This document shows, piece after piece, positions 45,001 through 51,000 of a stretch of 64,000 nt of DNA (positions within the stretch are counted from its first letter, which is position 1; each line of letters starts with the position of its first letter). Position numbers: made by a program. Source of the DNA: a virus. Lineage: Duplodnaviria; Caudoviricetes. The stretch is from the IMG/VR virus record IMGVR_UViG_3300006155_000002; one strand, 5' to 3'.

Positions 45001-48000
45001 TGGTGTGACATACTACATCTCTTTCTTCCCGACTTCTACGGATGGCGCATCAACTATCAATTCGAATAATCGGACAACTGGTGTTCCAAATCGTCTGACA
45101 ATCACAACCGCGCCTACTCAAAGCAACACTCTTACCTACAATAAAGCGGCACAGAATCCGACTTGGTCTAACTACGATACAGCAAAAATGACCATTGGCG
45201 GTGAGACTGTTGGCACAAATGCTGGAACGTATACAGCTACATTCACTCCGACCGATGACTATGTTTGGTCTGGTGATACGGAGCCGAAGGCCAAGAACGT
45301 ATCCTGGACCATCGGGAAAGCTACTGGCACTCTGACGCTTACCCCTGCATCCATCGTACTGGATAAAACCACGACGAGTGCCACTTTTACCATCTCTGGT
45401 GACTTCGATGGTTCTTATACTGTCGTGTCACAAAATACAAGCATTGCAACTGTGGCGCTGGTAAGTGGTAAGACATATCGTGTCAGCAGCGTAAACAGCA
45501 CCACAGGCAGCACCACTATCAAGGTGACCTGTTCTGGCGGCAGCAATTATTCTGTGCCCTCCGAGAAGTCTGTAAGTGTGACAGCTAAGTTCGTTACAAT
45601 CTATGGCGCTTCTTGGGATGGATCAAGCACCACTAAGTGGTCTCGTACCGACGCATCTGCAAGCTTTACAGATCCTGTACCTGCTGTAAGCAATGGAACA
45701 GGCAGTTCTCCGTTTGACAATTTGGCGCCGTGGTCCGAGATGAAGCGCACGTCAGATTCTGTTGGTGGCGAGCTTGTTTCTATTCCAAAGTTCTACTACA
45801 AGTGGACGAAGAGCGGAAACTCGTTGAAGCTCCAGCTTGCAGATGGACAGACGGATGGCTTCAATGTGTCTCCGGCACACGCAGACAGAGGAGATGGAAG
45901 GGGTGAGCGAGATGTAGTTTATGTTGGAAGGTATCATTGTGCAAGCGGGTATAAGTCTACTACTGGCGTTGCACAGCAAGTTAGTATCACACGTTCTGCA
46001 GCGCGGACAGGTATTCACAATTTGGGTACAACCTTTTGGCAGTTCGACTATGCTATGCGTGTAACCATTCAGATGCTTTATCTGGTGGAGTTTGCTGATT
46101 GGGATTCGCAAACAAAGATCGGCTATGGCTGTTCTTCTGGTGGTTCAAAGCTCAACAACGGACAGACTGATGCGATGCAGTATCATACTGGTACAACAGC
46201 AGCAAATCGTACCACTTATGGTTTTACGCAGTATCGCTACATTGAAGGTCTGTGGGACAACGTGTACGACTGGATGGATGGTTGCTATTACAATAGCAGC
46301 GGCATGAACATTATCATGAATCCCAACAATTTCTCGGATTCTGCCAATGGCACCCTGATTGGTAAGCCGTCCAATGGCTGGCCATCCGCTATTGCTGTGG
46401 CTACCGCAAGCGGTCTTGAGTGGGCAATCTACCCGACAGCAGCGAGTGGCTCTGCTACAACCTACGTCGCGGATAGCTGGAACTATAACGCTTCCAGCCC
46501 GTGCCTGTTCTGTGGTGGCTACTACAACCAGTACACCTACTACGGGTTGTTCTACGTGAACTACAGCGGCACGAGCAACACGATCGCGGTCATCGGCTGC
46601 CGCCTCCAAAAACTCCCCTAAGAGAGGGGTTTGGGGAGAACCGCAGTTCTCCCCATCCAGTAGCCAAGTAAACAATGTAAAAGGGGACGTGCGCAAGTAC
46701 GTCCCCTAAATCGAATCATTCCTATTTTTAGTAAAGCAAACAAGAAGCGCATTTTATGTGCGCTACGGGATTGCCTACGCAGCAGTCGCTGGTTCATTTA
46801 TTGTGCCGTCGCGGATAACTGGAACTATAACGCTTCCAACCCGTGCCTGCACTGTGGGGGTAACTACAACCAGAACCAGAACCACGGGTTGTTCTACGTG
46901 AACTACAACAGTGCGTCGAACACGAACTCGAACATCGGCTGCCGCATCCTTGTTTTTCGCTGGGCCTCACCAGAGGTTCCGGGCGAGTGCGTGGTTAGCA
47001 TTATTTTTGGTAGATCGGGCTCCTCACCCTTTCTATAAGGGCTGTGGTGCGTATTTCGCACTACACCCTTGGCGCGGGCAATCGCGTGCCCCTTGGCAAA
47101 GATTAACCGATAGGACATGGGTTAGTACCCTCTGAGAAACCGGAGCGTGGGAAAGCTCATGAGGTTACAAGGAGGTACTGTAACAACCTATGAAACGTAC
47201 AAAAAATCTATACGAGAAACTCATTTCACACGACAACCTGATGCTTGCCCTCGTGGAGGTAAACACGAGTCACAGGTGGCTGCCGAAACACAGGCCAAAC
47301 AAAACGGTCGCATGGATTGAACAGGATATGGAGGCGCGTGTAGAGGATCTGCGCCATATCATCGAGCAGATCGTATATCATAAGCGCCAGCTCTCCAAGC
47401 CGAAGCAGAAGCAGCGGTATGATAAGAGCGCCGGAAAATGGCGTATCATCAACGAACCAAAGCTGTGGCCGGATCAATATATACACCATGCGCTTGTGCA
47501 GGTTCTCCAACCAACCATGATGCGTGGAATGGACAGGCATTGCTGTGGTAGTATCCGCAATCGTGGCATTCACTACGGAAAGAAGAAAATTGAGAAGTGG
47601 ATGGACACGGATGTTAGAGGGACCAAATACTGCGAAGAACTCGACATCCATCATTTCTACGACAGCATTGATCCAGGGTTCATTTTGATACGGTTGCGCC
47701 ACCTCATCAAAGATTGGCGCGTATTGAAGGTATGCGAGGAAGTCCTACGGTACGGCGTACTGATTGGCCTATACACCTCGCAGTGGTTCGCAAATACGCT
47801 TCTACAGCCACTCGACCAGCTCATCAGAGACAGCGGATTCTGCACCCACTATCTCAGATACATGGACAATTTCACAATCTTTGGAAGTAACAAAAGGAAA
47901 CTGCACAGGCTGAGAAAGCTAATTGAAGAATGGCTTGCGGGAGTCAATCTCTCTTTGAAAGACAACTGGCAGGTGTTCCCCACAAGGAGCCGTATGCCAT

Positions 48001-51000
48001 GCGCACTCGGCTACAGGTTCGGCAGAAGGTTCACATTGCTCAAGAAGCGCAATCTGTTCCGTCTAAAACGGAAGCTGAACGAGTATTACCGCCGCAAAAG
48101 GCAGCACAGAAAAATATCCGCCAGAATGGCGACTGGGCTGATTTCAAGATTGGGTCAGCTCAAACATTGCAACAATAAAAACATCTATGAAAAAATCTAT
48201 CACGGCAAGGTTCAAAAGGAACTGAAACAAGTGATTCGAAATCATATGCGAGAGGAGAGATTAACGTGGAGTATGTATTTGGAGCAAATGGCTACAGCGG
48301 CGTAGAAACTCTCCGTACCAAAGGGAGCGAGCACACCGATTTTGAGGGGTTCGCGGAGGTGGTACAGGAATACGATGACAGCACCATCACAGACACCTTC
48401 CACGTCATCCAGAAGACAAAATTCGATGAGGATGCGGAAGGCAACTGCTATGATTGGTATGAAATCGACCATCACAACCGCATCGTTGATAAGACGAAGC
48501 GCATGAAAGCGAATATGGCTGTGCTGGTCGCATCCATTTTGGAGGGCTAAGATATGGACAAACAGTATATTTCACAGCTTTATCACGATGGCGGACTGAC
48601 CAATATGGGTGTGCTCCAGGCTATTACTATGGGCTGGATCACCACAGAGGACGCCGTTGATATCCTCGGTTTAGATAATTCTCTCAGCGTTGTCCGGTCT
48701 GCAAAGCTGCTGGAAATCTCCAAAGCCTGCAATACGGTGATTGTATCCGGTGTTGACGTTCAGATCGGCGACCGTACAGATCACTTCAATCTGGCACTGG
48801 AAGACCAGAGCAATATCAACAACCTGTTCCGCGTGGTAGAGTTGGGCGGCACCGCATTCCCCTATCAGGCGGATGATGGAACCTGTACGGTCTACTCCGC
48901 TATGGAGATTGCACAAATCTACATTGCCGCACAAACCCTTATCACAACACAGACTTCATACCACAACGCGCTGAAAGCATACGTCCTGTCTCTTAAAGAT
49001 GAGGATACTATCTCCGCTGTGGTATACGGAATGGATCTGCCGGAGCCCTATGCTTCTGAACTGACCGGTAAGCTGACCGTAGCACAGGAGCAGATGGCGG
49101 CAATCGTTGGGAGGTTGAGCGCAAATGCGGCTTCCGCAACTGATTGATCTTCTGATTGATATCTGCCGGCGGCAGGCGGATGTGATTCGAGCACAGGCAT
49201 TTGCACTGAGTCAATATGATGCTGCTGTCTGCGAAGACGAAGCAGAGTGGGCCCGGCGCAAGCTGGACGAAATCTGTGATGATTGGGAGCCTGATGCGCC
49301 ATGGTAGTCAATAAGAACGGAAAGTGGGTTCTGAGCGTACTCCTTTGGGTATGGACGGGGACGTTCTACTTCTTCACTGAGGTTATCTGGAAGACAGCAA
49401 ACGGGAGACCGGAAACAATCAGTTGGACGATGCTTTTGCTTGCTATTTTCCTTGCCGTACCTCTGGAGCGATTCGGAGCAGAACTTCCATGGAATATGCC
49501 TCTGCTCTTACAATCTGTTATTTGTACCTGTGCTATCACAGCGGCGGAGTTCTGTGCGGGTTGTGTTCTGAACTTATGGCTTGGCCTTGGTGTCTGGGAT
49601 TACTCTCACATGCCCGGGAACATTCTCGGTCAAATCTGCCCGCAATTTATCTGCGTGTGGTTTCTTCTGTCAACTTTTGCAATCGTTATGCTCGACTGGA
49701 TGAGGTACAGTGTTGAGGGTGGAGAGCGACCACACTACAGATTTGTCTGAACATCATATAACGAGGGCTGTGTCTATTGAGACATTGCCCTCTATCTAAA
49801 AACCGAAGGGAGGGATTTCAGTGAGCAGGAAAACGAACCGCTGTTTGACGGCGCCACCTGAGAAAATCGCACAGATCAACCCGGAAAATATCAGACTGAT
49901 GAATGATTTCATTATGTATCTGCGCTCCGTGGACAGGTCTGAACAGACTATCGTGGTTTACAAGAATGATTTGCTGATTTTCTTCTGCTGGGTCGTAGAC
50001 AACGCAAACAACAAGTTCTTCACTGATATTTCCAAGCGCGACATCATGGCATTCCAAAATTATGCGCTGGGACAGGGGTGCTCTGCGAATCGTGTCCGGC
50101 ACCTGAAGGCCGCGCTTTCTTCACTGTCAAACCTTATCACAAATATTCTGGACGATGAATATCCAGACTATCGGCCGGTTGTCCGGAAGATCGAGAACCC
50201 AGTCAATGAGCCTGTACGCAAAAAGACCGTTCTGACTAAAGAGCAAATTCAGGGCTGTCTTGACTATCTGGTCGAACATAAAAAGTATGAGCAGGCGTGT
50301 TTCCTTGCACTGGCGGCGTATTCGGGCCGGCGAAAATCTGAGCTGGGTCGATTCAAAGTCGTGTATTTCTCTGATGAAAATATCATCTACGGTTCTCTGT
50401 ATAAGACGCCGGAGAAAATCAAAACCAAAGGACGCGGCAAGAGCGGAAAGATGCTGACATGCTATGTGCTCGCAAAACCCTTTAAGCCATACCTCGACCT
50501 GTGGATGGAAGAGCGCAAGCGGCGCGGCATTGACAGCGAATGGCTGTTTACGGACGTACACGACAAAACGCAGCCCATTACAGTATCCCGCATGAACAGC
50601 TTCGCCCGTACATTTTCCAGTATCATTGGTGAGGATGTATATCTGCACTCTCTTCGGCACTTTATGACGAGTGAACTGGCGAGAGCAAACATCCCGGATT
50701 CTGTGATCCAGTCTTTGATTGGATGGGACTCTGCGGATATGGTCGGTGTGTATAAGGACATTGACGCAGATGAAGAGTTCGGCAAATACTTCAAGGACGG
50801 CGAAATTGTCGCACAAAAACAGGCAGGTCTTGGAGACTTGTAATATGTTGCTTAGCCATAGGCGGGGTGGGCTGCGGCCCTCCCCTGCACCCCTCCCATA
50901 GGGGTTTGAAGGAGGCGGCGACAGATAAGGATAAAAGGACGGGAGTCGGCTGTGCTGGCTCCCTTTGTATATAAAACCATCGTTTTACCGAGGAGGTGGT

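What the first reader, a model, noticed from the sequence alone, without database searches (positions are those of the whole stretch)
46592..50926. Inverted orphan DGR homing signal brackets a TR-RT-recombinase cassette
Seen: after VR, ATCGGCTGCCGCCTCC..CCCCTAAGAGAGGGGT..GGGGAGAAC-CGCA-GTTCTCCCC (46592-46654). On the minus strand at 50926-50864, ATCTGTCGCCGCCTCC..CCCCTATGGGAGGGGT..GGGGAGGGC-CGCA-GCCCACCCC. They share the GCCGCCTCC core, tandem hairpins, the CGCA loop and compensatory AA/TT>GG/CC stem changes, but the second copy has no VR or ORF upstream. It lies about 20 nt past the stop of a tyrosine recombinase. Inference: the 4.3-kb block (TR, RT, chaperones, recombinase) may be invertible or exchangeable, giving an on/off switch or template swapping that would explain the TR/VR discordance. 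Alternatively it is a relic of a deleted second target, or a decoy homing site.
Basis: partly seen in the sequence, partly recalled or inferred. Interest (0 to 1): 0.8.

Follow-up and report, generated by a model that had tools for sequence, protein, structure and literature searches.

The report
Orphan inverted DGR target signal
A gut-Clostridia phage carries a second, upside-down and gene-less copy of the DNA signal that marks where its mutator retroelement rewrites a tail gene. This copy looks like an old leftover, not a flip-switch, and the odd template/target mismatch comes from two phage lineages being joined at the first, genuine signal.

Summary
Copy 2 (50926-50864, minus) is the best non-self match to copy 1 in the window (46/64 identical). 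It is the only orphan hit of a profile built from this DGR clade's VR-end signals (E 1.6e-4 over 2.6 Mb).

The flip-switch reading is not supported:
- About 25 public assemblies of this phage lineage are collinear, and none shows a hybrid site.
- The tyrosine recombinase is a backbone gene. It occurs in relatives without copy 2 and without a DGR, and it is absent from other DGRs of the clade.
- A serine integrase does the integrating.

Copy 2 occurs only in two sister lineages (W and Z). It sits at the recombinase/endolysin module junction and is most likely a relic, at most a weak transcript-end hairpin.

The TR/VR mismatch is explained. The window's VR is identical to that of another phage (L256) and fits L256's template (12 of 13 differences at template adenines). 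Everything right of copy 1 is 100% identical to a widespread, actively diversifying lineage. The junction lies within 46611-46659, the double hairpin of copy 1. Without reads I cannot tell natural recombination from an assembly chimera. Read-level tests were unavailable.

The parts
44354..46621 (+). DGR target gene (755-aa tail protein); its C-terminal end is the variable region
   Evidence: phrog_5302 tail protein, E 8e-40. The exact protein, VR included, is also in L256 and L257.
46465..46607 (+). Variable region (VR)
   Evidence: 143-nt repeat of TR. It has 25 mismatches to its own TR, 12 of them at non-A template bases. It has 13 mismatches to the TR of L256, 12 of them at TR adenines.
46592..46655 (+). 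Copy 1: genuine DGR target recognition signal. It comprises the GC-rich VR end (IMH-like), hairpin 1 (46615-46629) and hairpin 2 (46632-46655, CGCA loop).
   Evidence: Fold. The element is conserved after every VR of the clade. 7 of 9 stem pairs of hairpin 2 covary.
46611..46659 (.). Junction interval between two phage lineages. Left of it the window equals L256/L257; right of it the window equals L237, L155 and at least 12 other public contigs.
   Evidence: Identity profiles and alignment.
46807..46949 (+). Template repeat (TR), allele W
   Evidence: It is identical in 17 loci of lineage W, whose VRs differ from it almost only at TR adenines.
47190..48305 (+). DGR reverse transcriptase
   Evidence: PF00078, E 2.5e-13. 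phrog_1423, E 6e-68.
48266..48550 (+). 94-aa gene overlapping the RT stop. It is the RT's conserved companion across the clade.
   Evidence: tblastn finds it next to RTs of about 46-91% identity. No Pfam or PHROG family.
48554..49750 (+). Backbone genes: DUF4376 tail-fibre-like protein, a 60-aa ORF and a 149-aa membrane protein
   Evidence: Pfam and PHROG hits. They are present in related phages that lack the DGR.
49821..50843 (+). Tyrosine recombinase (340 aa); a backbone gene, not the integrase
   Evidence: PF00589, E 1.2e-14. It is conserved upstream of the endolysin in lineages with and without a DGR or copy 2.
50845..50926 (-). Copy 2: inverted orphan homologue of the VR-end signal. It has a GC-rich stretch (50911-50926), hairpin 1 (50889-50905) and hairpin 2 (50862-50888, CGCA loop, one internal mismatch).
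   Evidence: It is present in lineages W and Z only.
50941..50973 (+). Terminator-like hairpin followed by TTTGTATATA. The same unit recurs upstream of genes at 41134 and 44354.
51004..52440 (+). Endolysin (Phage_lysozyme2 plus Amidase_2); an exchangeable module
   Evidence: Different lysins follow the recombinase in related lineages.
53909..55420 (-). Large serine recombinase, the phage integrase; attP lies near 53880
   Evidence: PF00239, PF07508 and PF13408. Homology to prophage copies ends at 53879-53883, next to other genes, bacterial ones in L276.

Best explanation
Copy 1 is the working DGR target signal of this phage clade. It consists of a GC-rich VR end plus two hairpins, and the second hairpin has a conserved CGCA loop.

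Copy 1 is the longest stretch kept identical between otherwise 70-85% identical lineages. That makes it the place where target-gene modules and DGR cassettes get joined. The window joins a rare phage (its left 46.6 kb, including a VR written by template allele Z) to the widespread lineage W (everything from 46611 to the window's end). Its TR and VR therefore do not match, and no retrohoming has happened since the join.

Copy 2 is a diverged (72%) inverted orphan of the same signal. It arose once in the common ancestor of lineages W and Z, directly after the recombinase stop codon, at a junction where lysis modules are exchanged in all relatives. It is most likely a relic of an old rearrangement, for example the 3' flank of a lost convergent target gene. 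At most it now acts as a stem-loop at the end of the recombinase transcript.

The block between the copies does not invert. The tyrosine recombinase is an unrelated backbone gene.

Shown: the homology, the distribution among lineages, the collinearity, the junction position and the TR/VR bookkeeping. Inferred: the relic origin, and homologous recombination as the joining mechanism.
For: - VR bookkeeping. The window VR is 100% identical to the L256 VR. It differs from the L256 TR at 13 positions, 12 of them TR adenines. It differs from its own TR at 25 positions, 12 of them non-A. Eleven of those 12 coincide with differences between the two TR alleles.
- Identity profiles. Window versus L256/L257 is 100% left of about 46600 and 72-92% right of it. 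Window versus L237, L155 and 11 other aligned contigs is 66-86% left of it, 100% from 46611 to at least 53300, and essentially identical on to 64000.
- Lineage W is active. There are 13 distinct VRs among 17 loci, and 36 of 38 variable columns fall on TR adenines.
- Copy 2 distribution. It is identical or nearly so, and in the same orientation, in every W contig. It is in Z (L256) with a compensatory C-G to T-A change in hairpin 2. It is absent in lineage K and in non-DGR relatives, where the next gene's ribosome-binding site follows the recombinase stop within about 10 nt.
- Recombinase relationships. Amino-acid identity is W/Z 93%, non-DGR L004 82% and K 74%, which fits a single gain of copy 2.
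- No recombinase lies within 8 kb of the other DGRs of the clade.
- Prophage copies end at about 53880, beside the serine integrase.
Against: - The A+W combination is seen only in the window. The shared identical stretch at the junction is just 49 nt, so a chimeric metagenome assembly would give the same picture. The other odd combination (L069, whose junction lies inside TR) is also a singleton.
- Assemblies hide minority orientations, so rare inversion is not excluded.
- The compensatory change in hairpin 2 of copy 2 between W and Z hints at some constraint. So does sequence conservation of about 90%, similar to the neighbouring coding sequence. A pure relic would not be expected to show either.
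- W and Z lose similarity within 0-20 nt of copy 2's outer edge, which could mean the edge itself matters.
Confidence: 0.6

Rival explanations
1. The 4.3-kb block is an invertible or site-specifically exchangeable cassette. The tyrosine recombinase recombines copy 1 with copy 2, possibly recognising folded hairpins as integron integrases do.
For: - The repeats are inverted and share an identical 9-nt core, and a tyrosine recombinase gene lies inside the block.
- Lineage breakpoints cluster at copy 1.
- W/Z similarity ends near the outer edge of copy 2.
- BPP-1 target signals work in either orientation (PMC3240598).
Against: - None of about 25 assemblies is inverted and none has a hybrid site.
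- The recombinase is conserved in relatives that lack copy 2 and in relatives that lack the DGR. Other DGRs with copy-1-type signals lack the recombinase.
- The window's junction is a single switch at copy 1, and its right flank continues as lineage W. Recombinants within W break inside the lysin gene, not at copy 2.
- The two copies are only 72% alike.
Confidence: 0.06
2. Copy 2 is a live second homing or decoy site that binds or is nicked by the DGR machinery without a VR.
For: - It keeps the GC-rich stretch, both hairpins and the clade's CGCA loop.
- Hairpin 2 shows one compensatory pair change between W and Z.
- Target function in BPP-1 does not depend on orientation (PMC3240598).
Against: - No TR-like sequence lies next to it in any contig.
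- The stem carries an internal mismatch in all versions.
- It matches the last 16 nt of VR at only 13 of 16 positions.
- Sister lineage K runs the same type of DGR without it.
Confidence: 0.06
3. Copy 2 is kept as an RNA or DNA stem-loop that ends or stabilises the recombinase transcript. Its likeness to the DGR signal reflects origin only. This reading is compatible with the relic reading.
For: - Copy 1 read backwards is flagged as terminator-like (hairpin plus T5).
- Copy 2 lies directly after a stop codon in that sense.
- It is about as conserved as the neighbouring coding DNA between W and Z.
Against: - The scan does not flag copy 2, which is followed by only T3 or T2.
- In lineage W a canonical terminator-like hairpin follows 15 nt later.
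- Relatives couple the lysin directly to the recombinase gene.
Confidence: 0.2
4. The similarity is chance among GC-rich hairpins.
For: - Both elements are G+C-rich palindromes.
- The fold of copy 2 is not better than that of shuffles.
Against: - Copy 2 is the best non-self match in the window, with z about 8.7.
- It is the only orphan hit of the family profile in 2.6 Mb, E 1.6e-4.
- The parts lie in the same order with the same loop, and similarity continues beyond the hairpins.
Confidence: 0.03

Closest known systems
Target recognition signal of the Bordetella phage BPP-1 DGR (IMH plus hairpin/cruciform; Guo et al. 2011, PMC3240598)
   Same: Copy 1 has a GC-rich VR end that differs from the TR end. 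A GC-rich 10-bp hairpin with a 4-nt loop lies 24 nt downstream, within the published 4-34 nt range. Across relatives the stem sequence is free and the loop is conserved.
   Different: The loop is CGCA, not the GRNA consensus. An extra hairpin holds the stop codon. Copy 2 has no VR, is inverted, lies 4.3 kb away and has a mismatched stem.
DGRs with several, remote or degenerate targets (survey of Wu et al. 2018, PMC5758913; tentaclin phages, PMC10743442)
   Same: More than one target-type signal is associated with one RT/TR. Stranded or decayed targets are known.
   Different: Here only the last about 16 nt of a VR plus the downstream signal survive. No target gene is left.
Invertible host-range segments and tyrosine-recombinase switches (Mu G/Gin, shufflon/Rci, fim and Bacteroides invertons)
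   Same: Inverted repeats bracket a segment next to tail genes, and a recombinase gene lies inside the segment.
   Different: Only one orientation is seen, there are no hybrid sites, and the recombinase and the repeats do not co-occur across relatives.
Module exchange at short conserved boundary sequences in mosaic temperate phages (general knowledge)
   Same: Lineage junctions sit in the short stretches that stay identical: copy 1, the 5' part of TR, and the recombinase/lysin boundary.
   Different: Here the conserved stretch is kept by DGR function. Exchange there uncouples VR from its TR.

Membership tests
DGR target recognition signal (IMH + hairpin) | Lies directly 3' of a VR that is a repeat of TR | tested here: met
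   Met for copy 1: VR 46465-46607 and TR 46807-46949. Not met for copy 2: no TR-like sequence lies beside it in any contig.
DGR target recognition signal (IMH + hairpin) | GC-rich stem of 7-10 bp with a 4-nt loop, 4-34 nt from the VR end (PMC3240598) | tested here: met
   Copy 1 has a 10-bp stem and a CGCA loop, 24 nt after VR. Copy 2 has the same layout, but its stem has an internal A.A (or A.G) mismatch.
DGR target recognition signal (IMH + hairpin) | Loop consensus GRNA on the sense strand | tested here: not met
   The loop is CGCA in both copies and in most of the clade. The loop appears to be clade-specific.
DGR target recognition signal (IMH + hairpin) | Stem kept by compensatory changes across relatives | tested here: met
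   7 of 9 pairs have double changes across 15 sequences.
DGR target recognition signal (IMH + hairpin) | Adenine-specific diversification next to the signal | tested here: met
   Next to copy 1 in lineage W, 36 of 38 variable VR columns fall on TR adenines. None is seen next to copy 2. The window's own VR is unchanged relative to L256.
Recombinase-driven invertible segment | Both orientations, or hybrid sites, present in populations | tested here: not met
   About 25 assemblies from many samples are all collinear and their sites are unmixed.
Recombinase-driven invertible segment | Recombinase and its repeats co-occur across relatives | tested here: not met
   The recombinase occurs without copy 2 in lineage K and in non-DGR phages. 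Copy-1-type signals occur without the recombinase in more than 50 DGR loci.
Intrinsic terminator | GC-rich hairpin followed by a T/U run | tested here: not met
   Copy 2 on the + strand is not flagged and has only TTTG after hairpin 1. The neighbouring hairpin at 50941-50963 is flagged.
Tyrosine recombinase (PF00589) | Catalytic domain profile match; R-K-HxxR-[H/W]-Y residues | tested here: met
   PF00589, E 1.2e-14, plus an N-terminal SAM-like domain. The motifs GRRKSE, HSLRH and GW..VY were seen by eye in the translation. They were not aligned to a structure, because there was no PDB hit.

The most novel reading that the evidence does not exclude
The paired, inverted DGR signals are the ends of a swappable diversification cassette. 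Breaks or cruciform processing at IMH/hairpin signals would let related phages exchange whole TR-RT blocks and so re-template each other's receptor-binding genes. The same could come from a structure-directed reaction by the enclosed tyrosine recombinase, as with integron attC hairpins.
Probability: 0.06. Interest if true: 0.75.

Novelty: new variant of a known kind. Interest (0 to 1): 0.35.

Why it matters
TR/VR mismatches at non-adenine positions are usually read as DGR decay or unusual mutagenesis. Here they are bookkeeping evidence that a target gene and a DGR cassette of different lineages were joined at the target signal.

If the join is natural, the conserved DGR signal doubles as a recombination point. 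A foreign template could then re-scaffold a receptor-binding domain at its next homing event. If the join is an assembly chimera, it is a warning for DGR surveys of metagenomes.

The VR-less inverted signal is an unusual configuration. It shows that DGR target signals can survive detached from any target.

Tried and rejected
- No whole genome is held for the window. The records behind L237 and L240 are not held either.
- Megablast of the region against GenBank phages gave no match.
- An exact pattern from copy 2 gave no hit in IMG/VR contigs.
- blastn-short of copy 2 against the first 154 loci hit only the window.
- Inverted-repeat scans around the recombinase in relatives L004 and L069 found nothing above chance.
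- An exact-protein look-up of the L256 recombinase was not on record.
- PDB sequence search with the recombinase gave no hit.
- The literature search found no paper linking DGRs to invertible cassettes.
- I considered that the recombinase is the phage integrase with copy 2 in its attP. I rejected this because prophage junctions lie at about 53880, beside the serine integrase.
- I considered L257 to be a fourth cassette lineage. I rejected this because it is lineage Z with a small replacement that destroys the right arm of hairpin 2.
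Full report
**Anatomy**

The window is a large SPbeta-like temperate phage of gut Clostridia. YonB and YonD capsid-region families appear. The nearest genomic relatives of the recombinase are in Oscillospiraceae MAGs.

The region reads as follows:
- Tail protein with VR (44354-46621).
- Copy 1.
- TR (46807-46949).
- RT (47190-48305).
- A 94-aa gene.
- A DUF4376 tail-fibre-like protein.
- A 60-aa ORF.
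- A 149-aa membrane protein.
- A tyrosine recombinase (49821-50843).
- A 160-nt spacer holding copy 2 and a terminator-like hairpin.
- The endolysin (51004-52440).
- Three small genes.
- A large serine recombinase on the other strand (53909-55420).

- Copy 1 and copy 2 align at 46 of 64 columns. Copy 2 is the best non-self match to copy 1 in the window (score 24 against 6.9 +/- 2.0).
- GCCGCCTCC occurs only at these two places in the window.
- Every DGR relative found with the RT ends its VR in the same module: ATCGGCTGCCGCCTCC, a short A-rich spacer, a hairpin that holds the stop codon, and a second G-rich hairpin that usually has a CGCA loop.
- A profile of these modules, searched over 2.6 Mb of related loci, finds each VR end once. 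As its only orphan it finds copy 2 (E 1.6e-4).
- Hairpin 2 covaries across the clade at 7 of 9 pairs. This fits the published rule for DGR target hairpins that structure matters, not stem sequence (Guo et al. 2011, PMC3240598).
- Copy 2 has one internal stem mismatch in all its versions.

**Copy 2 is lineage-specific, and the recombinase is not part of the DGR**

- Recombinase relatives at 66-83% identity in IMG/VR keep the order DUF4376, membrane protein, recombinase, lysin, whether or not they carry a DGR. In all of them the next gene's ribosome-binding site follows the recombinase stop within about 10 nt. They have no copy 2.
- Copy 2 is present in every contig of the window's cassette lineage W. 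It is also in the sister lineage Z (L256), where hairpin 2 carries a compensatory C-G to T-A change.
- Recombinase identities are W/Z 93%, non-DGR L004 82% and K 74%, which indicates one gain of copy 2.
- Other DGRs of the clade (RT 30-63% identical) keep the target, and most of those with RT at 46% or more also keep the 94-aa gene. None has the recombinase within 8 kb.
- Prophage copies lose homology at 53879-53883, beside the serine integrase. In L276 bacterial genes follow. The tyrosine recombinase is therefore a second recombinase of unknown role, not the integrase.

**No inversion**

- Exact-protein look-ups show that lineage W is widespread. The RT is in 219 index blocks, DUF4376 in 396 and the integrase in 328.
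- All contigs read are collinear with the window. That is about 25 distinct contigs from JGI, ENA, NCBI and Logan.
- Copy 1 and copy 2 keep their own hairpins everywhere, and no hybrid site exists.

**Where the TR/VR discordance comes from**

- The window's VR differs from its own TR at 25 positions, 12 of them non-adenine.
- The exact target protein, VR included, is also encoded in L256 and L257.
- Against the TR of L256 (allele Z), the same VR differs at 13 positions, 12 of them TR adenines.
- The 12 differences between TR alleles W and Z account for 11 of the 12 non-A mismatches.
- Left of about 46600 the window is 100% identical to L256 and L257, and 66-86% identical to all W contigs.
- From 46611 onwards the window is 100% identical to the W contigs through at least 53300 and essentially to 64000. 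Over the same stretch it is 72-92% identical to L256.
- Capsid-side proteins occur only in the rare A-type contigs.
- The window is therefore A-type phage up to copy 1 and W-type phage after it. The switch lies inside 46611-46659, the double hairpin, which is identical in both parents.
- Lineage W is an active DGR. It shows 13 distinct VRs in 17 loci, and 36 of 38 variable columns fall on TR adenines.
- The window's VR has not been rewritten since the join.
- A second odd combination exists. L069 carries the B-type target, with a VR that fits allele W, joined inside TR to the K cassette.

**Caveat**

Each odd combination is a singleton from metagenome data. The shared identical stretches are short (49 nt and about 100 nt). 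Both parents co-occur in the same study's samples. Natural homologous recombination and chimeric assembly predict the same sequence, and only reads can decide between them.

**Copy 2 as a boundary**

- BLAST similarity between W and Z ends at 50924, the outer edge of copy 2. By eye, weak similarity may run about 20 nt further. Unrelated lysins follow.
- Within W, divergence jumps at about 50985-51005 or inside the lysin gene, not at copy 2.
- Lysins also differ after the recombinase in lineages without copy 2.
- The junction is therefore an ordinary module boundary, and no recombinant uses copy 2 itself.

**Verdict**

Copy 1 is a typical, functional DGR target signal that also marks a lineage junction. 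Copy 2 is a real, old, inverted and VR-less homologue of that signal. It is most likely a relic with at most a minor transcript-end role. The invertible-cassette idea is not supported.

Noticed in passing
L156, L161, L276 (window 59065 joined to 47380): This is a prophage remnant found in two metagenome contigs and in a MAG. An internal deletion with 4-nt ATAA microhomology fuses a truncated NrdD gene to a truncated RT. It removes the structural genes, the target gene and TR. In L161 and L276 a second deletion joins 51085 to 53823. L276 continues into bacterial genes beyond about 53880.
   Followed up: partly
window 41082-41108, 44307-44338, 50941-50973: A hairpin followed by exact TTTGTATATA recurs three times on the + strand, each time just upstream of a late gene (41134, 44354, 51004). 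It may be a terminator/promoter unit that punctuates the late operon. The phage also encodes a YonO-type RNA polymerase, according to another note.
   Followed up: partly
window 48266-48550: The 94-aa gene overlapping the RT stop is found beside nearly every related RT down to about 46% identity. It has no Pfam or PHROG family. It is a candidate accessory factor of this Avd-less DGR clade.
   Followed up: partly
L257:10280-10340 (equivalent to window about 46636-46740): In this Z-lineage variant a short unrelated GC-rich segment replaces the right arm of hairpin 2 and the following spacer hairpin. Its VR is identical to that of L256 and the window, as if it were frozen.
   Followed up: no
L250:3636-4624: One otherwise identical W cassette has its RT split into 260-aa and 59-aa ORFs.
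   Followed up: no
L244:1-3068: In this contig the W cassette and the C-terminal half of the B-type target (from about window 45219) are joined to an unrelated N-terminus (471-aa gene) and to upstream genes on the opposite strand. This is another mosaic around the DGR.
   Followed up: no
window 46508 (TR position 44, C before A): The same TR cytosine is changed to T in about half of the VRs examined: the window/L256, L010, L069, and 9 of the 17 W loci. It is a recurrent non-adenine change next to a mutated adenine.
   Followed up: no
window 46682-46707: A strong 9-bp hairpin lies in the spacer between copy 1 and TR. It is flagged as terminator-like on the minus strand. Lineages W and Z differ here, and L257 lacks it.
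   Followed up: no
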